Shown here: positions 7,208 through 64,000 of the stretch, in pieces
How positions within the stretch are numbered: position 1 is the stretch's first letter
Layout of the letters: each line of letters begins with the position of its first letter
Origin: an uncultured Pseudomonadota bacterium
Lineage (GTDB): Bacteria; Pseudomonadota; Alphaproteobacteria; RF32; CAG-239
NCBI GenBank assembly: GCA_949295935.1
Contig: CASFMW010000001.1
Location: 2,038-66,037, forward strand
Length of the DNA: 64,000 nucleotides
Reading direction: 5' to 3'
Translations under genes and position numbers: made by a program
Notes under the pieces: model-generated
The model's database searches: none
The model's input: the letters and a program-made list of their open reading frames with translations, nothing else
What the model was told of the DNA's origin: nothing

Positions 7208-9814
<2,607 letters not shown>

Positions 9815-9966: not shown

Positions 9967-10006
9967 TAAAATCCGCAGGCAATTTCGTAAGACTTGCGGA
10001 TTTTTT
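9967..10006 (-). terminator. possible polA terminator
   Basis: Immediately after the polA TAA, the minus strand reads AAAAAAAATCCGCAAG...CCTGCGGATTTTAA. ATCCGCA and TGCGGAT form a stem around a large loop, followed by a short U-run. Confidence 0.35.
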
Positions 10007-12793
10007 TTAATGCGCATCAGTCCAGTTGTTACCAGCGCCGACTTCAGCAATCAGCGGTACGGCAGTTTCGGCCGCACTTTCCATAATCTGTTTGATAAGA
10101 GCGGCGGCTTGCTCGACTTCTTCTTCGGGGGCTTCAAATACCAATTCATCGTGAACTTGCAACAGCATTTTAGTTTTTAAGCCCGATTCTTGCAGGGCTT
10201 TTTGCACTTTTATCATCGCGAGTTTGATAATATCGGCCGCGCCGCCTTGAATAGGGGCATTAATCGCCGCGCGCTCAGCATTAGCGACGATTCTCTTGTT
10301 GGTGTCATTAATTCCGGGAATAAAGCACTTGCGCCCAAACGGCGTTTCTACATAACCATGCTCATGGGCAAAAGCGATGGTTTGGCTCATATAAGTTTTT
10401 ATCTCGGGCATTTCGCGAAAATACGCGTCGATATAAGCCTTAGCCTCGTCATTAGATACGCCAATTTGTTTTGCCAAACCATATTGCGAAATTCCGTAAA
10501 TAATTCCGAAGTTAATCGCCTTGGCATGACGACGTAAATCCGATGTAATCTCTTCTAAGGGTAACTTAAAGACTTTAGATGCCGTTGCGGCATGAATATC
10601 CGCGCCATGAGCAAAAGCCTCTTTAAGGGCTTTAACATCGGCAACCGACGCCATAAGCCGCAACTCCACTTGAGAATAGTCGGAAGAAATAATTTTATAG
10701 CCTTTTGGTGCTATAAAACAGGAGCGAATTTTTTTACCTTCGTCACTGCGGATAGGAATATTTTGCAGATTCGGATTAGATGAGGCCAAACGTCCGGTAT
10801 TAACCACGGTTTGTGAAAAGGTCGTGTGAACACGACTATTTTTATCCAAGAGTTCGAGTAAAGAGTCGGTATAAGTGCTTTTGAGCTTTGAAAACCCGCG
10901 CCAGTCCAAAATTTTTTGCGCCAGCTCGATTCCCTCATCGGCCAGTTTTTCCAAAACATCAGCACCTGTCTGCCACGAACCTCCGGCAGTTTTTTTGCCC
11001 TTAATCGCATTTTTTTCAAACAAGATGACGCCGATTTGCTTAGGTGAGCCGAGGTTAAATTCTTCACCGGCCAGTTGATAAATTTCTTGCTCTAATTGCT
11101 TGAGGTTTTGTTCAAATTCACGACTGAGAGCTTTTAGCGCAGCAGCATCAACCAACACGCCGTTATCTTCCATGATTTTAAGCGTTTGAATCAAGCCGCG
11201 GTCAAAATGCTCATAAATAAAGGCCTTATGTTCTTTAACCAAACGGTTTTTGAATATTTTATAAAGGCGCAGTGTAAAATCAGCATCTTCAGCGGCATAA
11301 TCAACCGCCTTTTCCAGCGGAACAAGGTCAAAGGTAATCTTGTTTTTGCCGCTGCCACAAACCTCTTCATAAGCAATCATTTTGTGGTTAAGAAACAGCA
11401 TGGCCAGTTCATCAAGCCCATGTCCGTGCTGCGATGAATCCAATACATAAGACATAACTGCGGTATCTTCAATCGGGAAAACGTTGCAGTCTTCGCCCAA
11501 AACCTGAGCGATAAAATGCAGATCAAATTTAATATTATGCCCAATTTTGAGAATAGACTTGCTTTCCATGAGCGGACGCAAATACTTTTTTACGGTCGCA
11601 AAATTCAGCAAAGAAACCTGATTTTGCACAGGCGCAGAACCAAACAAATCGCTGTTTGCTGCACCGTCATTATAAACCAACGGCAAATAAGCAGCTTCGC
11701 CGATATCCGTAGCTATAGAAATCCCCACGATTTTATCAAAATAAGGGTTAAGGCCGGTTGTTTCGGTATCAAAAGCAAAGGCGCGTTTTTCTTTAATCTT
11801 GTCAGTCCATTTTTTTAGGGTAGCCTCGTCTGTTATCAACTCATAGTCTTGTTTGGGTGCTAAAAGCTCTTTAGGTATGGCAAAAGCCGATTCTTTTCCG
11901 CTTTCTTGCGCCTCGTCAAGGGCATCGCATCGCTCATTTGCCCAGTGTTCAAAGCGTGGCTTAAGAGTACGAAAAGCATATTTATCAGCAAAGGCCATAA
12001 GCTTGTCGAGCTCGGGCTTTTGGCAAGCATAATCTTCAATCGGCAACTCGACCGGAACATCGTTTTTAAGGGTTACCAACTGTAAAGAAATCTCGGCGTC
12101 ATGACGGTGGGCGATAAGATTTTCGCGACGTTTATTTTGTTTGATTTCTCCGGCATGGTCCAAAACCTCTTGTAGCGAACCAAATTGATTAACCAGCTCG
12201 GCCGCAGTCTTAATTCCGATTCCCGGAACCCCAGGCACATTATCAATCGTATCACCGGCCAAGGCCTGAACATCAACCACACGGTTGGGATAAACGCCGA
12301 ACTTTTCTTTAACATCTTCGGGGGTAAAAAACTTATCTTTCATCGGGTCGTAATAAGAAACCCCGTCACGAATAAGCTGCATAAGGTCTTTATCGGCAGA
12401 TACCACAACCGCCTCATAACCTTTATCAGTAGCTTGTTTGGCATAAGTTGCAATCAAGTCATCGGCCTCATAACCTTCCATCTCCAAATGATGGAGATTA
12501 AGCACATCAACCGCCTCACGAATAATTGGAAATTGCGGAACCAGCTCTTCGGGAACTTCGGGACGCGTCCCTTTATAATCCGAAAAAATTTGATTACGAA
12601 AGTTCTGCCGTTTTGCGTCAAATAACACCAAACAATAATCGCACTTAATCCTTGTTGTCAGTTTAAGAAACATATTGCTGAAACCATAGACGGCATTCAC
12701 CGGCGTATTGTCGGGAGAAGTCATCATCGGCAGTCCGTAAAAGGCGCGGAAAATATAGCCCGAGCCGTCAATCAAACAAACTTTTTTAGGCAT
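10007..12793 (-). CDS. polA: DNA polymerase I
   Basis: 928 aa. It has a 5'-nuclease domain (LIDGSGYIFRAFY), a 3'-5' exonuclease domain (FAFDTETTGL) and polymerase motifs (DYSQVELRLMA, INFGIIYG, QVHDELVFE). Confidence 0.97.
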   Translation of the reverse strand: MPKKVCLIDGSGYIFRAFYGLPMMTSPDNTPVNAVYGFSNMFLKLTTRIKCDYCLVLFDAKRQNFRNQIFSDYKGTRPEVPEELVPQFPIIREAVDVLNLHHLEMEGYEADDLIATYAKQATDKGYEAVVVSADKDLMQLIRDGVSYYDPMKDKFFTPEDVKEKFGVYPNRVVDVQALAGDTIDNVPGVPGIGIKTAAELVNQFGSLQEVLDHAGEIKQNKRRENLIAHRHDAEISLQLVTLKNDVPVELPIEDYACQKPELDKLMAFADKYAFRTLKPRFEHWANERCDALDEAQESGKESAFAIPKELLAPKQDYELITDEATLKKWTDKIKEKRAFAFDTETTGLNPYFDKIVGISIATDIGEAAYLPLVYNDGAANSDLFGSAPVQNQVSLLNFATVKKYLRPLMESKSILKIGHNIKFDLHFIAQVLGEDCNVFPIEDTAVMSYVLDSSQHGHGLDELAMLFLNHKMIAYEEVCGSGKNKITFDLVPLEKAVDYAAEDADFTLRLYKIFKNRLVKEHKAFIYEHFDRGLIQTLKIMEDNGVLVDAAALKALSREFEQNLKQLEQEIYQLAGEEFNLGSPKQIGVILFEKNAIKGKKTAGGSWQTGADVLEKLADEGIELAQKILDWRGFSKLKSTYTDSLLELLDKNSRVHTTFSQTVVNTGRLASSNPNLQNIPIRSDEGKKIRSCFIAPKGYKIISSDYSQVELRLMASVADVKALKEAFAHGADIHAATASKVFKLPLEEITSDLRRHAKAINFGIIYGISQYGLAKQIGVSNDEAKAYIDAYFREMPEIKTYMSQTIAFAHEHGYVETPFGRKCFIPGINDTNKRIVANAERAAINAPIQGGAADIIKLAMIKVQKALQESGLKTKMLLQVHDELVFEAPEEEVEQAAALIKQIMESAAETAVPLIAEVGAGNNWTDAH

Positions 12794-51780: not shown

Positions 51781-53463
51781 ATGATAAATACAGAAATTAA
51801 AATTCCCGAAATGACCGAAGATTTTGAAGCGCTGATGAACGAACAGTTCGGCGACAAAGGGATTACCGGTTCCGTTGTAAAGGGAACAATCATCCGCGTA
51901 ACACCTGACTTTGCAACTGTTGATGTTGGCTTAAAGTCAGAAGGACGCATTCCTCTCCGTGAATTTGGTCAAAATGCGGAATTAAAAGTTGGCGATGTCG
52001 TAGAAGTTTATGTTGACCGCTATGAAGACAAAGACGGCAACATTGTTCTTTCAAGAGAAAAAGCTCGCCGCGAAGAAGCATGGCAAGATTTGGAAAAATC
52101 TATGAACGCTAATGAAAGAGTAAACGGTGTAATCTTTGGTCGTGTTAAAGGCGGCTTCACTGTTGACTTGAATGGCGCCATTGCTTTCTTGCCGGGTTCT
52201 CAAATTGACATCCGCCCGATTCGCGATATCACTCCGTTAATGGGAATTTCTCAACCTTTCCAAATCTTGAAGATGGACAAGGTAAGAGGCAACATCGTTG
52301 TTTCTCGCCGTGTTGTTCTTGAAGAAACCAGAGCTGAAGCTCGCGCTGAATTGATCAGTGACTTGAAGGAAGGTTCAGAACTCGAAGGTGTTGTTAAAAA
52401 CATCACCGATTACGGTGCATTCATTGACTTGGGTGGCGTTGACGGCTTATTGCACGTTACCGACATCTCTTGGAAGAGAATCAATCATCCGGCAGAAGTT
52501 TTGTCTGTTGGTCAGACCGTAAAAGTAAAGGTTATCAAATTCAACGAAGACAACCAACGCATTTCTTTGGGCATGAAGCAGCTTGAAGAAGATCCGTGGC
52601 AGCATGTTGCTGACAAATACAAAGTTGGTGAAATCTACAAAGGAAAAGTCACCAACATCACCGATTACGGTGCATTTGTTGAGCTTGAAGATGGTATCGA
52701 AGGCCTCGTTCATGTTTCTGAAATGAGCTGGACCCGTAAGAATGTTCATCCGGGTAAAATTGTTTCAACCTCTCAAGAAGTTGAAGTTAAAGTTCTCGAA
52801 GTTGATTCTGACAAGAGAAGAATCAGCTTGGGCATCAAACAATGCACCCCGAACCCATGGGCCGCTTATGTTGAAGAGCATCCAGTTGGATCAATCATTG
52901 AAGGCAAGATTAAAAACATTACCGAATTTGGTTTGTTCGTTGGCTTGTCTGATGAAATCGACGGTATGATTCACTTGTCAGATATCTCTTGGGATAAATC
53001 TGGTGAAGAGGCTGTTAAAGACTACACCAAGGGTCAAGACATCCAAGCTAAAATCATTGATGTTGATGTTGAAAAAGAGAGAATTTCTCTCGGTATTAAA
53101 CAGTTGACCGAAGACGCTGTTTCTGGTGCACTGGAAGGCATCAAAAAAGGCGACATCGTTAAAGCAACTGTTGTCAGTACCGATGAAAAAGGTGTCAATG
53201 TTGAAGTAAACGGCATTTCTGCTACCATCAAAAAAGCAGACTTGTCAAAAGACAAAGCTGAACAAAATCCGGAAAACTACAAAGCCGGTGATGTTGTAGA
53301 AGCTAAGATTACATCTGTTGACAAGAAAAACAACAAGATTGGCATTTCAATCAAAGCTCTCGAAATTGATGAAGAAAAGAAGGTTTTGGAAGAATATTCT
53401 AACACCTCTTCCGGCTCAACTTTGGGAGATGCTTTGGGTGAAGCTCTGAAGAAAAATGCTTAA
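51781..53463 (+). CDS. rpsA: 30S ribosomal protein S1
   Basis: The 560-aa product has six S1 (OB) repeats, e.g. GVVKNITDYGAFIDLGGVDGLLHVTDISW and GKVTNITDYGAFVELEDGIEGLVHVSEMSW. Confidence 0.97.
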   Translation: MINTEIKIPEMTEDFEALMNEQFGDKGITGSVVKGTIIRVTPDFATVDVGLKSEGRIPLREFGQNAELKVGDVVEVYVDRYEDKDGNIVLSREKARREEAWQDLEKSMNANERVNGVIFGRVKGGFTVDLNGAIAFLPGSQIDIRPIRDITPLMGISQPFQILKMDKVRGNIVVSRRVVLEETRAEARAELISDLKEGSELEGVVKNITDYGAFIDLGGVDGLLHVTDISWKRINHPAEVLSVGQTVKVKVIKFNEDNQRISLGMKQLEEDPWQHVADKYKVGEIYKGKVTNITDYGAFVELEDGIEGLVHVSEMSWTRKNVHPGKIVSTSQEVEVKVLEVDSDKRRISLGIKQCTPNPWAAYVEEHPVGSIIEGKIKNITEFGLFVGLSDEIDGMIHLSDISWDKSGEEAVKDYTKGQDIQAKIIDVDVEKERISLGIKQLTEDAVSGALEGIKKGDIVKATVVSTDEKGVNVEVNGISATIKKADLSKDKAEQNPENYKAGDVVEAKITSVDKKNNKIGISIKALEIDEEKKVLEEYSNTSSGSTLGDALGEALKKNA

Positions 53464-53484
53464 GTCATAAGTGTTTTTAGGAAA

Positions 53485-53510
53485 GCTCCGAAGAGATTCG
53501 GAGCTTTTTT
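53485..53510 (+). terminator. rpsA terminator
   Basis: GCTCCGAA-GAGA-TTCGGAGC followed by TTTTTT. Confidence 0.8.
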
Positions 53511-53530
53511 GTTAAGCAGAAAGATAAAAT

Positions 53531-53560
53531 TTCTTGCAATTTAGCAAAATAAATTATAAT
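53531..53560 (+). promoter_or_regulatory. promoter of the (now truncated) tRNA-Arg gene
   Basis: TTCTTGCAA holds overlapping -35 candidates 15-18 nt upstream of a perfect TATAAT (53555-53560), which ends 13 nt before the tRNA 5' end. The block AATTATAATCAA and its spacing are shared with the promoter of the intact tRNA-Arg at 55863-55939. Confidence 0.55.
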
Positions 53561-53573
53561 CAAGAAAAAGGCA

Positions 53574-53617
53574 GCCGGCGTAGCTCATCAGGATAGAGCA
53601 ACAGTTTCCTAAACTGT
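53574..53617 (+). pseudogene. truncated tRNA-Arg(CCT): 5' 44 nt only (acceptor 5' arm, D arm, anticodon arm)
   Basis: GCCGGCG-TA-GCTC-ATCAGGATA-GAGC-A-ACAGT-TTCCTAA-ACTGT is followed by non-tRNA sequence (TGCTCGTTATTTTTTAAT). There is no T arm and no CGCCGGC acceptor 3' arm anywhere downstream in the window. Confidence 0.8.
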
Positions 53618-53632
53618 TGCTCGTTATTTTTT
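53596..53632 (+). terminator. terminator-like hairpin created at the tRNA/island junction
   Basis: GAGCAACAGT-TTCCTAA-ACTGTTGCTC is a perfect 10-bp stem. It extends the anticodon stem using the D-stem 3' strand and island-side bases, and is followed by GTTATTTTTT. Confidence 0.5.
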
Positions 53633-53772
53633 AATATTTCAGCTTGCCTTTTCATCTTATTGTAATATACTGTTTTACATAGAAATTTAATAATACTTCT
53701 TCATCGCTTGCTTTACTTGATTTTCTCAAAATAGATAAAAAAGTAGGCACTGTGTAGGCACGGAATAGACAC

Positions 53773-54927
53773 ATGGATAAGAAATTCAAATTCACAAATG
53801 CAAATATTAAAAACTTACCAGCTCCGACAAAAAGGACTTTTGTTTATGATACAATAGAGGTTGGTTTGTCGCTTCAAATAACCCCAAACGGAGCGAAGAG
53901 CTTTTACTACCGAGGAGTTGTTTTAGGAAAACAGATACGCGTTAAGCTCGGAGAGCCTTCCTATATGAGTGTTGACGATGCCCGACAAGCCGCTCGTAAG
54001 GCCAAAATCAATATGAAAGAAGGTATCAACCCTATTGAGGAACGAAAAAAGATAACGGGCGAATCCTCTCTTGAACAATTATATACTCGTTTTATGGATG
54101 AAAAAGAACAACATATCCGTCCGATAACAATGGAATATTATAAGGATTTGTGGAAACGTTATCTATCTACACTTGCCAATAAGAAAATATCCCAAATAAC
54201 ACCTGACGAACTTAAGATACTTCATAAAAGATTGACATTGAACAATGGTAAGCGTTGTGCAAATCAAACAATCGTTCTTCTGCGAACCATTTATAACCAT
54301 TTCATCAAACAAAACATATATCAGGGATTTAATCCGGGCAATGCCGTGCAGCTTAACAAGCAAATCGCAAGAACAAGGCATCTAAGCGGAAATGAATTAG
54401 AATCGTTTAGAGATGCTATCAATGAAACTGAGGATTCTATACCAAAATTTGCAATTATGATGCTTTGGTTTACAGGAGCAAGAAGACGTAATGTCTTTTC
54501 AATGAAATGGGAAGACATTAAACTTGAAGAAAAGCTTTGGACGATTCCCGAAACAAAAACCCAAAATGACGCTAATGTTGTTTTAGTAAATGCAGCAATA
54601 GATATTCTCAATCAATTAAAAGATATGAGATACAATGAATATGTGTTTTTCTCGACAACATCCAAAAGTGGACATATTGGCGGAGTTCGAAAGACGTGGG
54701 AAGGAATCTTAAAGAGAGCAAAAATAACCAATTTTCACCTGCATGATTTAAGACATACCTTTGCGACATCATTATTAGCCAATGGGGCTGATGCTTTTAT
54801 GGTCAAAAAAGCCCTCACCCACAAATCATTACAGAGCACGCAAATCTATGTAAATCTGGAAGTTGATGATTTACGAGAAAAACTAAATGAAACCGTTAAT
54901 AAAATGATTGGAAAGAAAGATGAGTAA
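53773..54927 (+). CDS. int: tyrosine recombinase / phage-type integrase (P4-like, with a DUF4102 arm-binding N-domain)
   Basis: The N-terminal region is FKFTNANIKNLPAPTKRTFVYDTIEVGLSLQITPNGAKSFYYR. The catalytic residues are in TGARRRNV (Arg), HLHDLRHTFAT (His-x-x-Arg) and TQIYVN (Tyr). It lies about 155 nt downstream of the tRNA remnant in the same orientation. Confidence 0.92.
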   Translation: MDKKFKFTNANIKNLPAPTKRTFVYDTIEVGLSLQITPNGAKSFYYRGVVLGKQIRVKLGEPSYMSVDDARQAARKAKINMKEGINPIEERKKITGESSLEQLYTRFMDEKEQHIRPITMEYYKDLWKRYLSTLANKKISQITPDELKILHKRLTLNNGKRCANQTIVLLRTIYNHFIKQNIYQGFNPGNAVQLNKQIARTRHLSGNELESFRDAINETEDSIPKFAIMMLWFTGARRRNVFSMKWEDIKLEEKLWTIPETKTQNDANVVLVNAAIDILNQLKDMRYNEYVFFSTTSKSGHIGGVRKTWEGILKRAKITNFHLHDLRHTFATSLLANGADAFMVKKALTHKSLQSTQIYVNLEVDDLREKLNETVNKMIGKKDE

Positions 54928-55861
54928 GCCCTATAACCCAACAAAACATTTGAAACTAAACAAATTTAAGCAAGAAGGTTATGCTTACTTTGAAAACATA
55001 GATTTTTCTGCTTCTGATAATAAAGATATATTAGCGACAATGCTTTTAGATTTTCCAAGGATTGTTTTTCAAAAATGTATTTTCAAATCTCTTATAGCAA
55101 CCAAACAGATTTTTAACGCTACCATATCTTTTGATGAATGTAAGTTTACGGCTGAAGTTGACTTTAGCGAATCCATATTTAATAAAGTTGTATCTTTTAA
55201 GAACTCTTCCTTCCATGGCAAAACTTTGTTTATAAACACTGTATTTAAAAGCACTTTGGAGTTCTTTAATAATGTAATCAAGCCTAATATAAAAGGCGAA
55301 GTCAGCTTCAAAGTAGATAAAGCCATTAAGGAAAGTGATGTTTTCAGCGGTCTTCAATTCAACAATGTTAAGTTTGGAACTGAGACATCTTTCTTTGGTA
55401 GGGACTTTGGTCTTGTTGGCTTTCTTAAAAATACAGAGTTTGGGGATTTGTTTTGGATGACAAAATCTTCATTCGGAGAGAAGTTTGAAATGACAAACCT
55501 TAACTTCACAGGAGCAAAAAGAACCGAGTTTCTAAAATGCTTGGAAATATTCAAGAATTCGCTCAAACGCTCTTCTTTTGACTTATATGCTGATGAAGTA
55601 AACAAATACGAAGAGCTTATGAGAAGTAAGGTTTCACAACCCGTCATAAATATTCATAATATGCCGATTCCTGAAATACCTGTCAAAGAAGGTGATTATA
55701 ATCTATATACGACTGAAGAAGCTGCCACGATTCTCCATGTAAAACAAAATACTTTGGAAAGATGGCGTTGTGAAAGGAAAGGCCCCAAAGCAACCAAAAT
55801 AGGCCGTAAAGTTTTTTATAAGAAATGTGATTTAGATGAATATATAAACAAATATAAATAA
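54920..55861 (+). CDS. fusion protein: Phe-centred 5/6-residue repeat (pentapeptide-repeat-like beta-solenoid) + C-terminal excisionase/MerR-type HTH
   Basis: The ATG at 54920 overlaps the int stop (gATGAGTAA). Residues about 60-190 show Phe every 5-6 residues (CKFTAEVDFSESIFNKVVSFKNSSFHGKTLFINTVFKSTLEFF...). The C-terminus LYTTEEAATILHVKQNTLERWRCERKGPKATKIGRKVFYKKCDLDEYI is typical of Xis/AlpA-type HTH domains. Confidence 0.6.
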   Translation: MSKPYNPTKHLKLNKFKQEGYAYFENIDFSASDNKDILATMLLDFPRIVFQKCIFKSLIATKQIFNATISFDECKFTAEVDFSESIFNKVVSFKNSSFHGKTLFINTVFKSTLEFFNNVIKPNIKGEVSFKVDKAIKESDVFSGLQFNNVKFGTETSFFGRDFGLVGFLKNTEFGDLFWMTKSSFGEKFEMTNLNFTGAKRTEFLKCLEIFKNSLKRSSFDLYADEVNKYEELMRSKVSQPVINIHNMPIPEIPVKEGDYNLYTTEEAATILHVKQNTLERWRCERKGPKATKIGRKVFYKKCDLDEYINKYK

Positions 55862-55862
55862 A

Positions 55863-55939
55863 TGGCGTCAGCGGCGGGACTTGAACCCACTACCCCTGGT
55901 TTAGGAAACCAGTGCTCTATCCGGATGAGCTACGCTGAC
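55863..55939 (-). tRNA. tRNA-Arg (anticodon CCT), intact
   Basis: The reverse complement reads GTCAGCG-TA-GCTC-ATCCGGATA-GAGC-A-CTGGT-TTCCTAA-ACCAG-GGGTA-GTGGG-TTCAAGT-CCCGC-CGCTGAC-G-CCA. All stems pair. Its 3' end lies 1 nt from the stop codon of the 54920-55861 CDS. Confidence 0.93.
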
Positions 55940-56217
55940 TACCTAGCCTTTGATTATAATTAAAAAAAATAAAAAGCAAGTTAAAATTATATATTTTTAA
56001 GCCATCTTTTGCTCTTTGTTTTAATTGGCCAAATATTAAACTGCTGCATGTTCCATATATAGGAATAAGAAAAAACACTCGTTATTATCTCCATCTGGGG
56101 ATTACATAACAAATAGGATAAAGAAAGTAATTATAATTAAACAGATATTCTTATTGAAAAATCAACCTTTTTACTTTAGGCTCCAAGTATTACAGCTAAA
56201 ATAGATTGGGAATAAAA

Positions 56218-58676
56218 ATGTCTGAAAAGGAAGCTCTTGCGAGAATTAAAATCAATAAGTTGTTAGAAGAAGCAGGCTGGCGTTTTTTTGATACCGAAAA
56301 AGGCAAAAAGAACATAAGTCTTGAGCATACAACACATATTGAAGATAAAGATAATCCAAAGTTTATTGATTACTTGTTGCTAGATGATAATGGCTATCCT
56401 ATTTGTGCATTAGAAGCCAAAAAAGACAGTATAGACCCATTATTTGCCAAAGACCAAGCAAGAGCATATGCAGAATCGCAAAATATTCGTTTTGTTATCT
56501 TATCAAACGGAGATATTCATTATTTATGGGATATAAAATCAGGAAATCCGCAGCTGATTACCTCAATGCCTTCACCGGAATCTTTATTATCCAGAAAATC
56601 ATTTATTCCTAATCCCAAAGCTTTAGCAACAACAAAGATTATTCCGGAATATGTAGCTTTAACTCAAAACCCCAATTTATTAAATGAACCTTTGTATTTA
56701 GATGAAAAGACCAGAGGCAAATATTGTTGGGATAACGGATACCGTGTTTTAAGACCTTACCAAATGAAGGCGGTTGAAGAAGTTCAAAAAGCCGTAGGTC
56801 AAGGAAAAAACAGGTTTTTGCTGGAAATGGCAACCGGTTTGGGCAAAACATTAACAGCCGGAGCTTTAATCCAACTATTTTTGAAAACCGAAAATGCCAA
56901 AAGAGTGTTGTTTTTGGTTGATAGAATAGAGCTTGAAAATCAAGCATATAAAAACTTTTGCTCTTTACATCTGTCATTTATAAAAAAGCTCGTAATGATT
57001 GGTATAAAGCAAATGTTGTTATTACAACCATTCAAAGCATTGACGGCAAATATAATCAGTTGTTTTCACCAACGGATTTTGATTTGCTGATATCTGACGA
57101 GGCTCACAGATGTATCGGAGGCAATAGCCGAGCCGTATTTGAATATTTTGTCGGTTATAAATTAGGCTTAACGGCCACCCCGAAAGATTATCTGAAAAAT
57201 ATTGATACGAAAAAGCTAAATGAGCAAGACCCCAAAGCCTTAGAACGCAGAATATTGCTTGATACATATAAGACCTTTGGTTGCGAGAGCGGAGACCCAA
57301 CATTTAGATACTCTCTGTTGGATGGTGTAAAAGCCGGATTCTTGGTTAATCCGATTGTTATAGATGCCAGAACCGAAATCACCACACAGCTTTTATCCGA
57401 TAAAGGTTATATTATTAACACCACCAATGAATATGGTGATGAAGTTGAAGATTCTGTTTATCAGAAAGATTTTGAAAAGAAATTCTTTTCAGAAGAAACC
57501 AACTGGACATTTTGCAAAACCTTTATGGAAAATGCCTTAAAAGACCCAATATCGGGAGAAATTGGTAAAACAATTATCTTTGGTGTCAGTCAGAAACATT
57601 GTGCGAAACTCACACAAATCTTAAATCAAATTGCAAATAAGATGTATCCGGGAAAATATAATTCTGATTTTGCCGCACAAATAACCTCATCTGTATTTGA
57701 GGCTCAGCAATCTACCATCAATTTTGCCAATAATAACTTGAATGGCAAAAGCCGATTTTTAGAAGGTTATGATACCAGCAAAACCAGAGTTTGCGTAACG
57801 GTTGGCATGATGACCACTGGTTATGATTGCTCTGATTTGTTAAATATCTGTTTGATGAGGCCGATATTCTCTCCGACCGATTTTGTGCAAATTAAAGGAC
57901 GCGGCACCAGAAAGCATACATTCAAATACACCGATGCCGATAAACAAACAACAACCGTTGAAAAGCAAAACTTCAAAATGTTTGATTTCTTTGGCAACTG
58001 TGAATATTTTGAAGAAAAATTTAATTATGATGAAGAGTTAAAACTGCCGAAAATAACGGAAAAGAATTCCGGTGAAGGCGTTCCGAGACCACCGATAAGT
58101 GAAATCGTTTTGGGAGATATAGACCCTCTTAAAACGGTTAATACCACGCATATTGGTGAAGAAGGTATGCGTATTGACCGAGAGTTTTTCCAAAAAGCCA
58201 AAGAAACACTGCAAAACGACCAAGAAATTGCCGATGCTGTTGATAATGAGCAATGGGAAAGAGCCATCAACATCATCAAACAAAAGTATGAAAATCAGCC
58301 TCAACTCTATATGAACCTAGAGAAGATTAAGAAAACTCAAAAGCTTGATAGAAACATCACTTGGCGAGAAGTTTTGGAATATGTCTTTAACATCTTGCCC
58401 AAGTTTAAATCAAAAGATGAGCTTTTGGAAGATGAGTGCGATAAATTCATTTCCATATATAAGCCGAATGCCGAGCAAGTTCCTTATATCAAGAACTTTA
58501 TCAAGGCATATATAACAGATGCCGCCTTCCGAGAGATTATAGATAACAACTGTATAATCAGACTTAATACGGATTATGTCGGGTTTTCCGTGCTTGACTA
58601 TAGAAAAATCAAAGGATATGAAAATATATTGCCGATTTATATTAAAGAAAATGTCAATATGAACTTGTTTATGTAA
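56218..58676 (+). pseudogene. hsdR: type I restriction enzyme R subunit (HsdR), interrupted by a frameshift near 56952-56966
   Basis: Segment 1 (56218-57090) has an HsdR N-terminal nuclease-type region (EALARIKINKLLEEAGWRF...EAKK) and helicase motif I (EMATGLGKT). Segment 2 (reading frame shifted by one, open from 56952) has LISDEAHR (DEAH), GLTATP and the C-terminal helicase half. The two frames overlap at an A5/T4 tract. Confidence 0.8.
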
Positions 58677-58688
58677 AGGATTATTAAG

Positions 58689-61187
58689 ATGTTAGATAAA
58701 GATACCAAAACAACCATTCAAAATGCTCGTGATGTTTTGGTTGGAAAAGTTCCAAACCCTGTATCGCAAATAGATTTAATTACCACGGCGATGATATACA
58801 AGTTCATGGATGACATGGATTTGGAAAATATAGAATTCGGCGGCAAAAGAGTATTTTTTACAGATGATTTAGAGCCTTATGCTTGGAGCAAGCTCATGAA
58901 TCCCAAGCTTGGCCATTATGAACGCATTTCTTTATATGCCGAAGCATTGGATAAATTGCAAGTTGCTAAACAAATTCCTGATTTGTTCCGCAGAATCTTT
59001 AAAGGGGCTTTTTTGCCGTTTAGAGACGGAGCAACGCTGACTTTGTTCTTAAACGAGATAAATCAACTCAAATATGATAATTCTGAAAATCTGGGCGATG
59101 CTTTTGAATTTTTGTTATCTGTTATGGGTTCGCAAGGAGATGCCGGACAATTCCGCACACCTCGCCATATTATAGATTTTATTGTAGATGTGGTTAATCC
59201 GCTTAAAACGGATAGTATTTTAGACCCAGCCTGCGGCACAGCCGGATTTTTAATTTCTGCTTACAAGCATATAATCAACCAAGCCAAACAAAAAGGCAAA
59301 CTCTTAACACCGGCAGAAATGAAAACTCTAACCAATAATATTAACGGTTATGATATTTCACCGGATATGGTTAAGCTTGCCTCGGTTAATTTGTTTTTAC
59401 ATCAGTTCAAACAACCGCATATTTATGAATATGACACCTTATCATCAGACGTCCGTTGGGATGAGAAGTTTGATGTCATCTTGGCTAATCCGCCCTTTAT
59501 GACACCAAAAGGCGGAATTATGCCGCACAGTCGTTTCGGCGTGAAATCTAACCGTTCAGAAGTTTTGTTTGTTGATTATTTTATGGAACATCTAAACATC
59601 AACGGCAAAGCCGGTTTTGTTGTGCCGGAAGGCATTATCTTCCAATCAGCAAACGCTTATAAGGCGTTGCGTAAAATGATGGTGGAAGAAAATTATCTTT
59701 ATGCAGTGGTGAGCCTTCCAAGCGGGGTGTTTAACCCTTATTCCGGTGTCAAAACCTCTATTTTGTTCTTTGATAAGGCGTTGGCAAAGAAAACCGATAA
59801 CATTTTATTTGTAAAAGTTGATAATGATGGCTTTGATTTAGGTGCTCAAAGACGCCCAATCAAAGAAAACGATATTCCTAACGCTCTTGAAGCCCTAAAA
59901 GCTTATCGAAACAGTATTGAACAAAATACAGAGTTTGATACAGACAAATATGGTAAATGTCTGTTGGTCTCAAAAGACAAAATCAGAGAAAACGGCGAAT
60001 ATAATCTAACCGCCTCTCGCTATGAAGAAACCAAAGATTACACTAACAGCCAATATGAAATGGTAAAGTTAGGGGATGTATGCAATCTACAAAGAGGCTT
60101 TGCGTTTAAAAGCGAAGATTATGTAGATGAGGGAATTTTTAATTTTAGAGTTACAAATATAGGAGATAACGGTTCTCCCGATAAAAAAGATGCAAAATAT
60201 TTACCTAAAGACTTTTATCAAAAATATTCTGAATACAGGTTAAATGATGGGGATTTTGTTATTGTAATGGTTGGAGCAACAACTGGAAAAATAGGCTATA
60301 TAACAAAGGATATTTTACCTGCATTACTTAATCAAAATATGTGGAAATTTGTTCCAGATAACACAAAATTACATAGAAAATATTTATACTACATCATGAA
60401 AGAAAATGCTCTTCTTCAAAAACAAGGAGGAGCAAGGGATTATTTAAAACAATCTGATTTCATACAGCAAAAAATTCCGCTTCCGCCGCTTGAGGTTCAA
60501 GAAGAAATTGTTAAAGAATTAGACCAATACCAAGCCATTATAGACGGAGCTCAAAAGGTTGTAGATAATTGGAAACCCACCTTTACCATCAACCCAAACT
60601 GGGAAAAAGTTAAGATTGGTGATGTTTGCCAACTAATAAATGGGATTGCTTTTAAACCGGAAGAGTGGGAAACAAAGGATAAAGGAGGATTACCTATAAT
60701 TAGAATACAAAATCTTAATAATCCTGAAGCAGAATATAACTATTCAAGTAAAAATGTAAAATCTGATGTCATTATAGAAAATGGACAGTTGTTATTTTCT
60801 TGGTCAGGGTCAAGAGGAACATCCTTTGGACCTCATATATGGAAAGGAAAAAAAGCAATATTAAATCAACATATATTTAAGGTGATATATGATATAAAAA
60901 AATATGAAAAATACTTTTTGTATATGGCTCTGAAAAAAATTGTTTCACAAGTTGAAAATACATTACATGGGGGAGTTGGCCTAGTTCATATAACCAAAGG
61001 GGATTTGGAAAATATAAACCTACCACTTCCATCTCTTGAAGAACAAAAGGCTATAGTTGCTCAGATTGAACAAGAAGAACAATATGTTGATGCTTGTAAA
61101 AAACTAATAGAAATCAATCAACCAAAAATCACCAACAAAATCAACTCTATCTGGAATAGCAACATAGAGGATATAAAGGATGAATGA
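58689..61187 (+). CDS. fused type I R-M methyltransferase + specificity subunit (HsdM-HsdS in one 832-aa polypeptide)
   Basis: The N-terminal about 460 aa carry GQFRTPRHI, DPACGTAGFL and ILANPPF (N6-adenine MTase). The C-terminal about 370 aa hold two TRD + conserved-helix units (VKLGDVCNLQRGFAFKS...IPLPPLEVQEEIV and VKIGDVCQLINGIAFKP...LPLPSLEEQKAIV). There is no stop or frameshift between the two parts. Confidence 0.8.
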   Translation: MLDKDTKTTIQNARDVLVGKVPNPVSQIDLITTAMIYKFMDDMDLENIEFGGKRVFFTDDLEPYAWSKLMNPKLGHYERISLYAEALDKLQVAKQIPDLFRRIFKGAFLPFRDGATLTLFLNEINQLKYDNSENLGDAFEFLLSVMGSQGDAGQFRTPRHIIDFIVDVVNPLKTDSILDPACGTAGFLISAYKHIINQAKQKGKLLTPAEMKTLTNNINGYDISPDMVKLASVNLFLHQFKQPHIYEYDTLSSDVRWDEKFDVILANPPFMTPKGGIMPHSRFGVKSNRSEVLFVDYFMEHLNINGKAGFVVPEGIIFQSANAYKALRKMMVEENYLYAVVSLPSGVFNPYSGVKTSILFFDKALAKKTDNILFVKVDNDGFDLGAQRRPIKENDIPNALEALKAYRNSIEQNTEFDTDKYGKCLLVSKDKIRENGEYNLTASRYEETKDYTNSQYEMVKLGDVCNLQRGFAFKSEDYVDEGIFNFRVTNIGDNGSPDKKDAKYLPKDFYQKYSEYRLNDGDFVIVMVGATTGKIGYITKDILPALLNQNMWKFVPDNTKLHRKYLYYIMKENALLQKQGGARDYLKQSDFIQQKIPLPPLEVQEEIVKELDQYQAIIDGAQKVVDNWKPTFTINPNWEKVKIGDVCQLINGIAFKPEEWETKDKGGLPIIRIQNLNNPEAEYNYSSKNVKSDVIIENGQLLFSWSGSRGTSFGPHIWKGKKAILNQHIFKVIYDIKKYEKYFLYMALKKIVSQVENTLHGGVGLVHITKGDLENINLPLPSLEEQKAIVAQIEQEEQYVDACKKLIEINQPKITNKINSIWNSNIEDIKDE

Positions 61188-61995
61188 GATAAGACGACCG
61201 ATGATAGAACTCAAATATTCAGAAAGTGTATCCGCAAAAGATTTGGGGACATATTTTAACTGTTTAAATAATGAGTTTAAGACATTTATAAAGGACAATA
61301 ACTATCAAGATATTTTTAGCGACCAACTCGCAATTAAAGAAATAAAACCTGGTTCAATAGAGATTTTTCCGGTTTTAGAGTATGTTGGGGCAGTTCTACC
61401 TTTAATTGACCAAGCAAATGTTATAATAGACTTTTTTAATTCTATATCCGCTGGATTAAGGCTTTTGGAGCAATCTCCGGATAAAGTAGATTATTCTCAA
61501 AAAAAATTATCAAATTATAAAGGGCTTAATGGTTTGTCAGTAGCCGGAGATAATAATGTTATCAATTATACCATCATAAACAATTATGGAACACCAGATG
61601 AACAAAGAAAGACATTAGCGAGCTTTGATAACACTAAATCTCAAAAAATTGAGAAGCATATAAATGAGAAGTTATTAGAAGGTAAAAAAGTTGACAATAC
61701 CATTGCTCAAACGGTTGTTTTTTATTGGGATACAGCACGATTTAATAAATCAAAACCATTTAATTATAAAGGGATATGCAGAAAAATATCACCAAATCCA
61801 TATAATGTCATTTTTGATGATGAAAAGGTTAAAAATTATATGACAAGAGAGAGTCATTTAGATAAGCCGTGGCAGGATTTGTGCTATGTTGTAGATATTG
61901 AACTTACGGAAGGAAAATCAAAACCTGTTTATAAAATTACCAAAGTTTATGAAGACCAAACATTCTTTCAAGAAACTGAAGATAATGAGAACTAA
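61180..61995 (+). CDS. hypothetical protein (271 aa), no recognisable domain; first gene of the R-M-appended cassette
   Basis: Its ATG overlaps the last 8 nt of hsdMS. The ORF is long and uninterrupted in an AT-rich context where random ORFs are short. Confidence 0.6.
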   Translation: MNEIRRPMIELKYSESVSAKDLGTYFNCLNNEFKTFIKDNNYQDIFSDQLAIKEIKPGSIEIFPVLEYVGAVLPLIDQANVIIDFFNSISAGLRLLEQSPDKVDYSQKKLSNYKGLNGLSVAGDNNVINYTIINNYGTPDEQRKTLASFDNTKSQKIEKHINEKLLEGKKVDNTIAQTVVFYWDTARFNKSKPFNYKGICRKISPNPYNVIFDDEKVKNYMTRESHLDKPWQDLCYVVDIELTEGKSKPVYKITKVYEDQTFFQETEDNEN

Positions 61996-62350
61996 TTTTA
62001 TAGAAATTCCTGAGTTATCAGAAAAACTAACTGAACTGTTTAATAGACCATATCATTTTTATAAAAATATAGTTTATTTCTGTGAAGAAATAACCATCGA
62101 TAGATATAAAAATGTGCAATTTATTGTTAATACCGATGACCACTCACCACTTCATTTTCATATAGAAACAACTAATCCTGATGGAGCATATAAAGTCTTT
62201 CTAGATGAAAAGTATTCTATTGTAAGATTTGATATAATATATGGAAAACGTTTGCCAAAAAGAATCATAAAAACCATAAACTGTTGGTATGAAGAACAAA
62301 ATGGGAAAAGAAAAGTTTTGGAAGAATTACATAGAGTAGGAATGATATGA
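61985..62350 (+). CDS. DUF4160-like protein with an N-terminal extension of about 45 aa
   Basis: From MRTNFIEIPEL, the core is FIVNTDDHSPLHFHIETT...GAYKVFLDE...GKRLPKRIIKTINCWYEEQNGKRKVLEEL. This matches the DH.PPHFH...lP.r....v..W pattern of DUF4160, from memory. Its start overlaps the upstream gene by 11 nt. Confidence 0.55.
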   Translation: MRTNFIEIPELSEKLTELFNRPYHFYKNIVYFCEEITIDRYKNVQFIVNTDDHSPLHFHIETTNPDGAYKVFLDEKYSIVRFDIIYGKRLPKRIIKTINCWYEEQNGKRKVLEELHRVGMI

Positions 62351-63318
62351 ATATCAGGGAATATTACTGTGATAATGAAACCATCAATGAGTTTCTTGAA
62401 TTTCTTCCTATAACGACAGAAGAAGATTATCCTTGGATGCAAAAATATATCAGCGATTTGATGCTCCACATTGAAAAAGCGGAATATGAATTGGCTGTTA
62501 TTTCATCTCATATGATTTATATGTTTATTATCTACTCTTTTATTTTGAAGAAAAAAACATTTGAGTTGAGAGAAATACAGTCTGATTTTGCACAAGATAA
62601 GGAGCATTGTCCCAAGAGTAATACAGAAATTAGTCCTTATATATATGTAAATAAATCAGATAAAAATGTATTTGAAAGTCTAAAACAAACCAAGAAAATG
62701 AAAAGCCTTCATCATCAAATTGTTAAAATCAGAGACAACATAGCTCATTGTTCTGGTATAGAATATCAAGAAAATGATTTTATAGAATATATAGAAAGCT
62801 GCATAAAATGTTTTAAAGAACTAATTTCTACTATTTTTAATGAATTAAAGGATACAGAAAAATTTACCCAAGCATTAGAAGAATCCTCTCTTGAAGATGT
62901 GGTAAGTGACTTTTTATTATCGCCAAAAGAACTTTATATAATATGTGAAGAAAATATTAGAGAAGCTATTGAATCTTATCTGAGCGAAATTACGACATGG
63001 GATGATTGTTTGAATGATACAATCCCATCTAACTATGGTATAAACAATTATGAATTTTATGTTGATGACGTATTGTTAGAATTGGATTATGTCGAAGACC
63101 AAAGCATACAAGGGCATTTTTCATCAGATGTTGATTTCAATATAGATTTTCAAATGGCATCTTCAAACCCAGACGATGGATACAATGAAGCTTATTGCAA
63201 AAAACATTTTATTGAAGGCGACTTTGAATATAGCCTAATTGATAATCATTGTGATATACAAATAAACAATATGCCAACCATAGACTTTTATGCAGAAGAT
63301 TTACCGGATCCCCATTAA
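62347..63318 (+). CDS. HEPN-like (R-x4-H motif) protein with a highly acidic C-terminal half
   Basis: Its ATG overlaps the upstream stop (ATGA). The N-terminal half is helical and carries LHHQIVKIRDNIAHCSG (R129-x4-H134, nt 62731-62748). The C-terminal about 150 aa are rich in D/E/N/Y. Confidence 0.55.
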   Translation: MNIREYYCDNETINEFLEFLPITTEEDYPWMQKYISDLMLHIEKAEYELAVISSHMIYMFIIYSFILKKKTFELREIQSDFAQDKEHCPKSNTEISPYIYVNKSDKNVFESLKQTKKMKSLHHQIVKIRDNIAHCSGIEYQENDFIEYIESCIKCFKELISTIFNELKDTEKFTQALEESSLEDVVSDFLLSPKELYIICEENIREAIESYLSEITTWDDCLNDTIPSNYGINNYEFYVDDVLLELDYVEDQSIQGHFSSDVDFNIDFQMASSNPDDGYNEAYCKKHFIEGDFEYSLIDNHCDIQINNMPTIDFYAEDLPDPH

Positions 63319-63585
63319 ATATAGGTCTGTTCATTATTGTGCCCTTTCTTAATTATATTCACTTTCCAAAGCAAAATTTAAAACGACATGGAGCAGAGTC
63401 GCTGCGTATCTAGTTGCGTAAAACAAAACAACATGTTGATAACATTTTCTTATTTTGTTGCCAATTTTGAGGCGAATTCGTATCGTAATACGACAAAACA
63501 ACAGGTTTTATTTAAAACAGCTTGACTCATATTTTTTTAAATCGTAGCATCATCGTAGAGTTTTTAATAAACAAAGGAAGCAACA

Positions 63586-63972
63586 ATGGCTTTTGAGAGA
63601 TTCGAAAATATTGGTGGAATATACGTAACTAAAGCGAGCATATCCAACCGCGGCATAATCAGTTTAAGTCAAGGAGCGTGCAACTCTTTCAACTTAACTC
63701 CTGAAAATGCGAAGTTTGTTCAACTTTACTACGACAAAGAAAGTTGCCTTATAGGTTTAAAATTTGTCGCAGAACAGAGCGGAGCCGTGGCAAATGTAAG
63801 GTTTAGAAATACTTCCTTAGATTTTTCAGCGAAGTCTCTTTTGGATTATTACAAAATAATGCCAGAAAAAACAAGCTCTTATGAAATATCTAAGTTGGAT
63901 GATGAAATGATTGTTATCAATATGAAGAGTGCAAAGGTAAGACAAACTAAAGATTCAAACTCTTCACAATAA
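63586..63972 (+). CDS. hypothetical protein (128 aa)
   Basis: AAGGAAG lies 8 nt before the ATG, and TTGACT-17 nt-TAGCAT lies about 50 nt upstream. There is no clear domain. A weak AbrB/SpoVT-like beta pattern (ISNRGIISLSQGACNSFNL...VQLYYDKESCLIGLKF) is speculative. Confidence 0.45.
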   Translation: MAFERFENIGGIYVTKASISNRGIISLSQGACNSFNLTPENAKFVQLYYDKESCLIGLKFVAEQSGAVANVRFRNTSLDFSAKSLLDYYKIMPEKTSSYEISKLDDEMIVINMKSAKVRQTKDSNSSQ

Positions 63973-64000
63973 GATTCCTGAAAAGGAATGGAGTCGGAAA

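What the first reader, a model, noticed from the sequence alone, without database searches (positions are those of the whole stretch)
61180..63318. Three overlapping genes of unknown function appended to a type I R-M operon: candidate R-M-linked abortive-infection or toxin module
**What the sequence shows.** Four consecutive genes are joined by overlapping start and stop codons.
- hsdMS stop / ORF271 start: 8-nt overlap.
- ORF271 / DUF4160-like gene: 11-nt overlap.
- DUF4160-like gene / HEPN-like gene: ATGA overlap.

hsdR ends only 12 nt before hsdMS. The five genes therefore look like one transcription unit with enforced translational coupling.

**Content.** None of the three downstream genes is a normal R-M component.
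- One has no recognisable domain.
- One is a DUF4160-like small protein, a family usually seen in toxin-antitoxin-like pairs.
- One carries a HEPN-type R-x4-H motif.

**Precedent.** Latent RNases are known to be physically and genetically embedded in type I R-M loci (PrrC with EcoprrI, RloC, the Campylobacter rlo genes).

**Why it matters.** This three-gene composition, attached to a fused M-S and a disrupted R, is not an arrangement I recognise as described.
Basis: partly seen in the sequence, partly recalled or inferred. Interest (0 to 1): 0.85.

Follow-up and report, generated by a model that had tools for sequence, protein, structure and literature searches.

The report
HEPN RNase gene tied to restriction operon
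The last gene of this restriction-modification operon encodes a probable toxic RNase that always travels with this kind of restriction system, while the two genes in front of it are swappable cargo, so this is a new example of a known "back-up suicide defence" layout, not a new three-gene system.

Summary
hsdR is split by a 13-bp deletion. The fused hsdM-S gene, ORF271, a DUF4160-like gene and ORF323 follow each other with a 12-nt gap and then 8-, 11- and 4-nt overlaps.

The three appended genes are not one module. In all 16 distinct loci from Alphaproteobacteria and Balneola MAGs, an ORF323-family gene lies downstream of a fused hsdM-S gene. In 6 of them it follows directly or after a 2-12 nt gap. 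An ~825-aa hsdR lies upstream wherever the contig reaches. This holds down to ~18% identity.

ORF323 has an invariant R-x4-H dyad at the position expected for a HEPN RNase. Its distant relatives give consistent sub-threshold matches to Pfam HEPN_RiboL-PSP.

ORF271 and DUF4160 assort independently. They occupy a cassette slot between hsdM-S and ORF323. Relatives carry membrane proteins or a Ymh-type HEPN protein in that slot. ORF271 relatives also occur alone in other defence islands and in phages.

Best reading: a PrrC-like latent RNase coupled to a type I-like R-M system, with exchangeable embedded cargo. HEPN genes in R-M operons and embedded defence genes are both already described, so this is a new member of a known kind. 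Interest is moderate.

The parts
56206..58676 (+). hsdR: N-terminal HsdR-type nuclease region plus SF2 helicase. It is split into two frames by a 13-bp deletion near 56964.
   Evidence: Pfam HSDR_N, ResIII and DEAD, and PADLOC REase_I. The gene is intact and in one frame in L015 and all other relatives.
58689..61187 (+). Fused hsdM-hsdS gene (832 aa): an N6-adenine methyltransferase plus two target-recognition domains.
   Evidence: PF02384 at 4.7e-59, PF01420 twice at 2.3e-52, PADLOC MTase_I at 4.5e-103. Both TRDs are swapped relative to L015.
61023..61162 (+). Conserved 3' tail of hsdMS, which acts as the left recombination junction of the cargo slot.
   Evidence: It is 91% identical to L015 and L016, while the sequence after 61162 is unrelated. 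A 55-nt duplicate of this tail precedes ORF271 in L032.
61180..61995 (+). ORF271, the first cargo gene. It belongs to a rare alpha/beta protein family (phrog_9226) of unknown function found in defence islands and phages.
   Evidence: phrog_9226 at 3e-24. Only 22 clusters exist in 5.8 billion proteins. Solo relatives sit in defence islands. Foldseek matches uncharacterised Myoviridae proteins at E 7.5e-16.
61985..62350 (+). DUF4160-like gene (121 aa), the second cargo gene. Its domain is toxin-type, but the usual DUF2442 partner is absent.
   Evidence: PF13711 at 26.7 bits against a cut-off of 23. It is present in 8 of 16 ORF323 loci and is always immediately upstream of ORF323.
62347..63318 (+). 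ORF323, the constant terminal gene. It has an N-terminal HEPN-like helical domain (aa 1 to ~200) and a beta-rich C-terminal domain (aa ~205-318).
   Evidence: AF2 model with pLDDT 77. The profile search found 49 relatives. Every locus sampled has hsdMS upstream in the same orientation.
62731..62748 (+). Codons for R129-D-N-I-A-H134, the predicted HEPN catalytic dyad.
   Evidence: The translation reads VKIRDNIAHCSGI. R129 and H134 are invariant in 41 sequences at 13-50% identity. R lies at the end of helix 116-132 and H in the following loop.
53773..55861 (+). Island context: a tyrosine integrase (53773-54927) and a pentapeptide-repeat/HTH_17 protein (54908-55861).
   Evidence: Pfam. Proteins with a similar architecture sit upstream of hsdR in L005 and L011.
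55863..55939 (-). tRNA-Arg(CCT), lying between the integrase module and hsdR.
   Evidence: ARAGORN and Rfam at 62 bits.

Best explanation
The locus is a type I-like restriction-modification operon made of hsdR and a fused hsdM-S gene. Its constant last gene, ORF323, encodes a divergent HEPN-domain protein that is most likely a metal-independent RNase.

By analogy with PrrC and EcoprrI, I infer three steps:
1. The RNase is made together with the R-M proteins through translational coupling.
2. It is kept latent by the R-M complex, probably through its exchangeable C-terminal domain.
3. It cleaves cellular or phage RNA when a phage disables or overwhelms restriction, which aborts the infection.

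Between hsdM-S and ORF323 lies a cassette slot. Its contents are exchanged by recombination in the conserved hsdM-S tail and the ORF323 head. In this genome the slot holds two independent cargo genes. ORF271 belongs to a family found in phages and defence islands, of unknown function. The other is a DUF4160 toxin-type protein. They are add-ons, not subunits of one three-gene system.

In this genome hsdR is broken by a 13-bp deletion, so restriction itself is probably lost while methylation and the accessory genes remain intact.

Shown: gene order, linkage, cassette exchange, the conserved R-x4-H dyad and the hsdR deletion. Inferred: RNase activity, latency, the trigger and any defence role of the cargo.
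For: **Linkage**
- All 16 distinct loci with an ORF323-family gene have a fused hsdMS gene upstream in the same orientation, and hsdR is present wherever the contig extends.
- This includes four distant members at roughly 17-31% identity: L022, L023, L024 and the Balneola locus L034.
- ORF323 diverges faster than its partners. In L022, R is 65% identical, M-S 51% and ORF323 26%.

**HEPN assignment**
- R129 and H134 are invariant across 41 sequences, together with only M59. The consensus is V..RN..AH..G.
- In the AF2 model R lies at the end of a helix and H in the next loop, with an insert between helices 2 and 3. This is where PMC3710099 places the motif.
- Nine of 41 relatives match PF18735 HEPN_RiboL-PSP across the motif-bearing half of the profile, best E 1.3e-5.
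- Weak matches to PADLOC CARF_HEPN, Cas13a and Csx1 fall on the same segment.

**Cassette slot**
- The window and L015 are 97% identical up to 60077 and 95% identical from 62362, but unrelated across 61163-62361.
- In relatives the slot holds a 205-aa membrane protein, 363-aa and 106-aa membrane proteins, or a PF09509 Ymh HEPN protein at E 1.4e-19.
- L032 carries a duplicated hsdMS tail in front of ORF271.

**Precedent**
- At least 16 HEPN clades are linked to R-M operons, and the PrrC model is described there (PMC3710099).
- Embedded defence genes in type I R-M operons are described in bioRxiv 10.1101/2024.01.29.577857.
Against: - No curated HEPN model reaches its threshold. The best score is 25.6 bits against a cut-off of 28.4, and that is in relatives only. 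The window protein has no Pfam HEPN hit.
- Foldseek against the PDB gave no hit below E 1e-3. The weak top hits concern the C-terminal domain.
- Profile searches of PDB sequences found nothing.
- Helix 2 (aa 49-67) is very hydrophobic, with a Kyte-Doolittle mean of 1.96. The protein could be membrane-inserted instead of forming a soluble bundle.
- Nothing here shows RNase activity, toxicity, binding to M-S or a phage trigger.
- With hsdR inactivated, a PrrC-like guard role is untested in this genome.
- The sample of loci is small, and most come from one clade of gut Alphaproteobacteria MAGs.
Confidence: 0.6

Rival explanations
1. One reading: ORF271, DUF4160 and ORF323 together form one obligate three-component toxin-antitoxin or abortive-infection module attached to the R-M operon.
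For: - All three junctions overlap.
- The same five-gene order recurs in L001, L018 and L032.
- DUF4160, when present, always directly precedes ORF323.
Against: - ORF323 occurs without ORF271 in 10 loci, without DUF4160 in 8 and without either in 6.
- ORF271 relatives are solo genes in other defence islands.
- The 97%-identical relative L015 has an unrelated membrane-protein gene in place of both.
Confidence: 0.06
2. ORF323 is the toxin of an addiction (post-segregational killing) module that stabilises the R-M island. M-S, or slot proteins such as DUF4160, act as the antitoxin. Phage defence is not the selected function.
For: - The locus sits on integrase-bearing islands.
- HEPN proteins are common toxin-antitoxin toxins (PMC3710099).
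- The genes are tightly translationally coupled.
- The module survives here although hsdR is dead.
Against: - No conserved small antitoxin-like partner exists. In L022-L024 and L034 ORF323 follows M-S directly or after a 2-12 nt gap.
- R-M systems already behave as addiction modules without help.
- The slot cargo includes defence-type genes, namely a Ymh HEPN protein, and a SIR2_2 gene lies nearby.
Confidence: 0.15
3. ORF323 is not an RNase. It is a structural, regulatory or membrane-anchored accessory subunit of this R-M family, and the R-x4-H residues serve binding instead of catalysis.
For: - No curated HEPN model is passed, and there is no structural match in the PDB.
- Helix 2 is strongly hydrophobic.
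- Membrane proteins are frequent neighbours in the slot.
Against: - The only invariant positions over 41 divergent sequences are the R and H of the motif, plus one Met.
- The motif position and the polar residue after R match the HEPN active site.
- Sub-threshold HEPN hits recur in 9 of 41 relatives.
Confidence: 0.12
4. ORF271 and DUF4160 are selfish hitch-hikers, or phage-derived or anti-defence genes, that landed in a recombination hot spot. They contribute nothing to the host's defence.
For: - ORF271 matches a PHROG family and uncharacterised phage proteins.
- The cassettes turn over quickly between near-identical genomes.
- The DUF4160 gene lacks its usual DUF2442 antitoxin partner (PMC8198452, PMC12065111).
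Against: - The reading frames are intact and conserved at 38-93% identity.
- Solo ORF271 relatives sit beside SIR2_2, LlaJI-type R-M, Schlafen/AlbA_2, Fic and type I R-M genes.
- The same slot holds a known R-M-associated HEPN (Ymh) in L016.
Confidence: 0.2

Closest known systems
PrrC anticodon nuclease embedded in the EcoprrI type Ic R-M operon
   Same: A HEPN-type RNase gene sits inside a type I R-M transcription unit. In the proposed logic the R-M complex keeps the RNase latent as a second line of defence (PMC3710099).
   Different: - PrrC has an N-terminal ABC-type NTPase domain and sits between hsdM and hsdS.
- ORF323 has no NTPase domain and carries a beta-rich C-terminal domain.
- ORF323 is the last gene, after a fused M-S gene.
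- It shows no detectable sequence similarity to PrrC or RloC models.
RiboL-PSP-HEPN (PF18735) and the related Abi2/AbiD/AbiF HEPN clade
   Same: This is the only curated family that relatives of ORF323 match. The match is consistent and falls on the half of the domain that bears the R-x4-H motif. PMC3710099 describes the Abi2/AbiD/AbiF clade as embedded in R-M operons.
   Different: - All matches are below the gathering threshold.
- The window protein itself does not match.
- There is no L-PSP fusion and no ParB neighbour.
- ORF323 represents a separate, uncurated clade.
DhiT/DhiA (DUF4160/DUF2442) toxin-antitoxin pair and the DUF4160 effector domains of Menshen NsnC
   Same: The 121-aa protein passes the PF13711 threshold. 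In the literature DUF4160 is the toxin or effector partner (PMC8198452, PMC12065111).
   Different: - No DUF2442 gene is present.
- The gene is followed by ORF323 instead.
- It has a 45-aa N-terminal extension.
- It is dispensable in half of the related loci.
Defence genes embedded within multi-gene immune systems (guilt-by-embedding, Payne et al. 2024 preprint)
   Same: Variable genes are nested inside a type I R-M operon. The same slot holds different cargo in close relatives, including a recognised defence-type gene, the Ymh HEPN.
   Different: - Here the slot is bounded by hsdM-S and a constant HEPN gene, not by two canonical R-M genes.
- The window's own ORF271, DUF4160-like protein and ORF323 matched no PADLOC v2 candidate (PDC) model. 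The other slot proteins found in relatives were not scanned against PADLOC.
Ymh (PF09509) HEPN proteins in R-M neighbourhoods
   Same: A member of this family occupies the same slot in L016. It illustrates the known habit of HEPN genes to sit in R-M operons.
   Different: It is unrelated to ORF323 by profile comparison. It is cargo, not the constant partner.

Membership tests
HEPN superfamily (RNase) | Conserved R-x4-6-H motif with a polar residue (N, D or H) after the R | tested here: met
   The motif reads R129-D-N-I-A-H134. R and H are invariant in 15 close and 41 distant homologues, with consensus RN..AH.
HEPN superfamily (RNase) | [quoted passage not shown] | tested here: met
   In the AF2 model the helices are 29-43 and 47-67, then an insert at 68-115, then helix 116-132 (R129 near its end, H134 in the loop) and helix 142-168. 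The criterion comes from PMC3710099. This rests on a model with pLDDT 77.
HEPN superfamily (RNase) | Significant match to a curated HEPN profile or to a solved HEPN structure | tested here: inconclusive
   - The window protein has no Pfam HEPN hit. Its PADLOC hits are CARF_HEPN at E 4e-4 and Cas13a at E 2e-3.
- Nine of 41 relatives hit PF18735, but at most 25.6 bits against a cut-off of 28.4.
- Foldseek and PDB sequence searches were negative.
HEPN superfamily (RNase) | Metal-independent RNA cleavage that depends on the R and H residues | not testable with these tools
   This needs biochemistry.
PrrC/RloC anticodon nucleases | N-terminal ABC/Rad50-like NTPase domain fused to the HEPN domain | tested here: not met
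   No NTPase domain appears in Pfam, NCBIfam or PADLOC, and the 323-aa protein is too short for one.
PrrC/RloC anticodon nucleases | Gene embedded in a type I R-M operon (the PrrC arrangement) | tested here: met
   The gene shares an operon with hsdR and hsdMS in all 16 loci, but it lies at the 3' end and not between hsdM and hsdS.
PrrC/RloC anticodon nucleases | Latency imposed by the R-M complex and activation by a phage anti-restriction factor | not testable with these tools
   This needs genetics and biochemistry.
DUF4160 (PF13711) / DhiT-type toxin | Profile match above the Pfam gathering threshold | tested here: met
   The match is 26.7 bits against a cut-off of 23, over aa 46-105. The homologue in L005 scores 23.6 bits and the one in L001 only 18 bits.
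DUF4160 (PF13711) / DhiT-type toxin | Adjacent DUF2442 antitoxin gene | tested here: not met
   Neither ORF271 nor ORF323 gives a DUF2442 hit, nor do stand-alone copies of the ORF323 C-terminal domain.
Type I restriction-modification system | HsdM methyltransferase, HsdS with two TRDs, and HsdR with a nuclease plus an SF2 motor | tested here: met
   All the domains are present. However, M and S are fused, NCBIfam equivalog cut-offs are not reached, and hsdR is frameshifted in this window.
   Of 16 loci, 4 have both cargo genes, 2 have ORF271 only, 4 have DUF4160 only and 6 have neither. ORF271 also occurs alone elsewhere.
Embedded defence cargo in R-M operons | A variable gene set at a fixed position inside a defence operon, including recognised defence-type genes | tested here: met
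   The slot at 61163-62361 is replaced in L015. It holds a Ymh HEPN protein in L016 and membrane proteins in L005, L015, L017 and L031.

The most novel reading that the evidence does not exclude
R, fused M-S and the ORF323-type HEPN protein could form a distinct three-component subclass of type I R-M systems, conserved across phyla. In this reading the RNase is an integral, physically coupled effector. The interval between hsdM-S and the HEPN gene would be a dedicated capture site for defence cassettes. Membrane effectors, Ymh HEPN, DUF4160 and ORF271 would be expressed there by translational coupling and exchanged by recombination at the conserved M-S tail. That would make the R-M operon a small platform that displays interchangeable effectors.
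Probability: 0.3. Interest if true: 0.65.

Novelty: new member of a known kind. Interest (0 to 1): 0.45.

Why it matters
- It adds an uncurated HEPN clade with an unusually strict genomic partner. In every locus examined the partner is a two-gene R / fused M-S restriction system. Such strict linkage makes physical and functional coupling of an RNase to an R-M complex directly testable outside the single PrrC paradigm.
- It marks a short, well-bounded cassette slot. Its contents (ORF271/phrog_9226, tail-anchored membrane proteins, DUF4160 without DUF2442) are cheap candidates for new defence or counter-defence functions.
- It does not change the current picture of how R-M operons recruit back-up effectors.

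Tried and rejected
- **Named systems.** The window's ORF271, DUF4160-like protein and ORF323 gave no significant hit to a PADLOC system model or an NCBIfam family. The 41 ORF323-family members gave only weak HEPN-type PADLOC hits. ORF271 was the only one with a significant PHROG hit, to a family of unknown function.
- **PDC-S68.** One distant relative, P0062, hit PADLOC PDC-S68. The match lies only in its unrelated C-terminal extension, so the HEPN family is not PDC-S68.
- **Solved structures.** Sequence-profile searches of the PDB found nothing for ORF323, its wider family or ORF271. Foldseek against the PDB found nothing below E 1e-3 for either model. For ORF323 only weak NTF2-like hits to the C-terminal domain appeared.
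- **L005 slot gene.** I tested whether the 359-363-aa slot gene of L005 is a divergent ORF271. It is not (hhalign probability 0.9%).
- **Ymh relationship.** I tested whether ORF323 is related to the Ymh HEPN protein of L016. It is not detectably related.
- **Phage, viral and plasmid collections.** ORF271 was absent from the phage and viral collections searched, and ORF323 was absent from plasmids. The one exception was a weak partial ORF271 hit in an Alteromonas plasmid with no informative context.
- **Stand-alone C-terminal domain.** The context of stand-alone copies of the ORF323 C-terminal domain could not be resolved because the contigs are under 1 kb.
- **Wide alignment scan.** A metagenome scan with the wide alignment failed for lack of conserved stretches.
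- **Literature.** A search for fused hsdMS genes returned only unrelated uses of the term.
- **RNA and repeats.** No RNA family other than the tRNA, and no att-type direct repeats, were found in 53400-64000.

Full report
**1. Observation**

- hsdR is in two frames, at 56206-57090 and 56958-58676.
- hsdMS starts 12 nt after hsdR and runs 58689-61187.
- ORF271 (61180-61995) starts 8 nt inside hsdMS.
- The DUF4160-like gene starts at the ATG at 61985, an 11-nt overlap, and ends at 62350.
- ORF323 (62347-63318) starts with an ATGA overlap.

The junction sequences were read directly. Homologues begin at the equivalent of 61985, so the upstream TTG at 61898 is not the start.

Domain content also fits.
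- hsdMS has N6_Mtase plus two Methylase_S domains.
- The hsdR fragments carry HSDR_N, ResIII and DEAD domains.
- The 121-aa protein passes the DUF4160 threshold, at 26.7 bits against 23.

ORF271 has no hit in Pfam or NCBIfam and only an insignificant one in PADLOC (Cas4d, E 0.015). It does match phrog_9226, of unknown function, over its full length at E 3e-24.

The hsdR disruption is a genuine 13-bp deletion near 56964. I established this against L015, a MAG contig that is 97% identical over 53529-60077 and has the gene in one frame.

**2. ORF323**

Close homologues are few: 16 clusters among 5.8 billion proteins. A profile search of 1.84 billion representatives found 49 relatives. The N-terminal ~200 residues and the C-terminal ~115 residues each also occur as separate proteins.

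In an alignment of 41 members at 13-50% identity, only M59, R129 and H134 are invariant. The consensus is V..RN..AH..G.

The AlphaFold model has pLDDT 77 and pTM 0.73.
- It is helical up to about residue 225, followed by a beta-rich domain.
- R129 lies at the end of helix 116-132.
- H134 lies in the following loop.
- An insert separates helices 2 and 3.

This is where the reference analysis of the HEPN superfamily places the catalytic motif (PMC3710099).

Profile evidence is consistent but weak.
- Nine of 41 relatives match Pfam HEPN_RiboL-PSP on the motif-bearing half. All are below threshold, the best at 25.6 bits against 28.4.
- Weak PADLOC matches to CARF_HEPN, Cas13a and Csx1 fall on the same segment.

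There is no solved structural relative. I therefore rate "HEPN RNase" as likely but not proven.

One caveat stands. Helix 2 (aa 49-67) is hydrophobic enough to be a membrane segment.

**3. Linkage to the R-M system**

I gathered 16 distinct loci that carry an ORF323-family gene.
- **Hosts:** gut and environmental Alphaproteobacteria MAGs and a Balneola MAG.
- **hsdMS:** in every locus a fused hsdMS gene lies upstream in the same orientation.
- **hsdR:** an ~825-aa hsdR precedes it wherever the contig reaches.

The four distant members sampled behave the same way. These are L022, L023, L024 and L034, at roughly 17-31% identity. In them the HEPN gene overlaps hsdMS or follows it within 2-12 nt.

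ORF323 diverges much faster than its partners. In L022, R is 65% identical, M-S 51% and ORF323 26%. The conserved unit is therefore R, M-S and the HEPN gene.

**4. ORF271 and DUF4160**

These two genes are cargo, not subunits of a three-gene module.
- Among the 16 loci, 4 carry both genes, 2 carry only ORF271, 4 carry only DUF4160 and 6 carry neither.
- The window and L015 are near-identical on both sides, but 61163-62361 is replaced in L015 by one gene. That gene encodes a 205-aa membrane-anchored protein and keeps the same 8-nt and 4-nt overlaps.
- Other relatives carry a 363-aa and a 106-aa membrane protein, or a Ymh-type HEPN protein (PF09509, E 1.4e-19).
- L032 has an extra membrane-protein gene. 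It is followed by a 55-nt duplicate of the hsdMS tail directly in front of ORF271. This points to recombination in that conserved tail as the route of exchange.

The ORF271 family is very rare, with 22 clusters.
- Its more distant members are solo genes in other defence islands. One lies beside Fic and a classical type I R-M. Another lies beside SIR2_2, Schlafen/AlbA_2 and a LlaJI-type system. A third lies beside a resolvase and an integrase.
- Its model resembles only uncharacterised phage proteins.

DUF4160 is the toxin partner of DhiTA and an effector domain in Menshen systems (PMC8198452, PMC12065111). Its usual DUF2442 partner is absent here. When the gene is present, it always directly precedes an ORF323 with the canonical C-terminal domain. 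That could hint at an interaction, but it may only reflect shared ancestry.

**5. Mechanism**

- **Shown:** a coupled operon, a conserved catalytic-type dyad, strict linkage to R and M-S, and cassette exchange.
- **Inferred:** by analogy with PrrC and EcoprrI (PMC3710099), ORF323 is a latent RNase restrained by the R-M complex. It would be released when restriction is blocked or overwhelmed. The variable C-terminal domain would act as adaptor or sensor, and the slot genes as extra effectors.

C-terminal domains differ among relatives. One of them is shared with the C-terminus of the PADLOC candidate PDC-S68.

In this genome restriction is probably lost because of the hsdR deletion, while M-S and the accessory genes remain intact.

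**6. Comparison with what is known, and verdict**

HEPN genes in R-M operons, in at least 16 clades, were described in 2013 together with the PrrC-type logic. Variable genes embedded in type I R-M operons were described in 2024.

ORF323 fails the PrrC/RloC membership test because it has no NTPase domain. It reaches no curated HEPN model. It is best filed as a new HEPN clade nearest to RiboL-PSP and AbiD/F.

What is new:
- the ORF323 family itself;
- its strict partnership with a fused M-S system across phyla;
- the sharply bounded cassette slot.

I rate this as a new member of a known kind, of moderate interest, with a clear set of experiments to test it.

Noticed in passing
window 53533-53620 (+) and 55863-55980 (-): A truncated 5' half of a tRNA-Arg(CCT)-like gene lies on the + strand. 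It and its upstream region form an 82-nt inverted repeat with the complete tRNA-Arg(CCT) and its upstream region. The two copies bracket the integrase and the pentapeptide/HTH_17 gene. This may be a trace of integration or inversion.
   Followed up: partly
window 56964: hsdR carries a 13-bp deletion (TTATTTGAAGGAT in L015). The deletion splits the gene, so restriction is probably inactive while the methyltransferase gene is intact.
   Followed up: yes
window 60078-61022: Both target-recognition domains of hsdMS differ from those of the 97%-identical relative L015. The central spacer (60472-60628) and C-terminal spacer (61023-61162) are conserved. This is classical TRD shuffling, which changes specificity.
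   Followed up: partly
window 63586-63972: ORF128 has no family hit. It is 96-98% conserved downstream of ORF323 in L015 and L016. In most relatives a convergent HTH_36 gene follows, which in this window would lie just past position 64000.
   Followed up: partly
window 54908-55861; L005 1787-2914; L011 1691-2812: Proteins that combine pentapeptide or beta-helix repeats with a C-terminal HTH_17 domain recur next to hsdR in several loci. Only the architecture is shared, not clear sequence homology. Pentapeptide proteins can mimic DNA, so a regulatory or anti-restriction role is conceivable.
   Followed up: partly
L032 4612-5844: There is an extra ~400-aa membrane-protein gene. It is followed by a 55-nt duplicate of the hsdMS 3' tail (5776-5830) directly upstream of ORF271. 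This is a footprint of stacked cassette insertion.
   Followed up: yes
L034 (Balneola sp. MAG JBDVIC010000021.1) 2281-10922: The gene order is integrase, R, fused M-S, a HEPN-family protein of 347 aa, and then a SIR2_2-like gene. The triad therefore exists outside the Proteobacteria and has other defence-type neighbours there.
   Followed up: partly
P0062 aa 288-406: A distant ORF323-family member carries a C-terminal domain shared with the C-terminus of the ~1200-aa PADLOC candidate PDC-S68 (E 1.5e-27). This shows that the C-terminal domains of this HEPN family are modular.
   Followed up: partly
L025 13543-14617: In the defence island that holds a solo ORF271 relative, a classical type I R-M has a 267-aa membrane protein gene and an 89-aa gene nested between hsdS and hsdR. 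This is another case of embedded cargo.
   Followed up: no
window 62491-62547 (ORF323 aa 49-67): The segment LAVISSHMIYMFIIYSFIL has a mean Kyte-Doolittle hydropathy of 1.96, which is in the range of membrane helices. It contains the nearly invariant H55 and the invariant M59.
   Followed up: no
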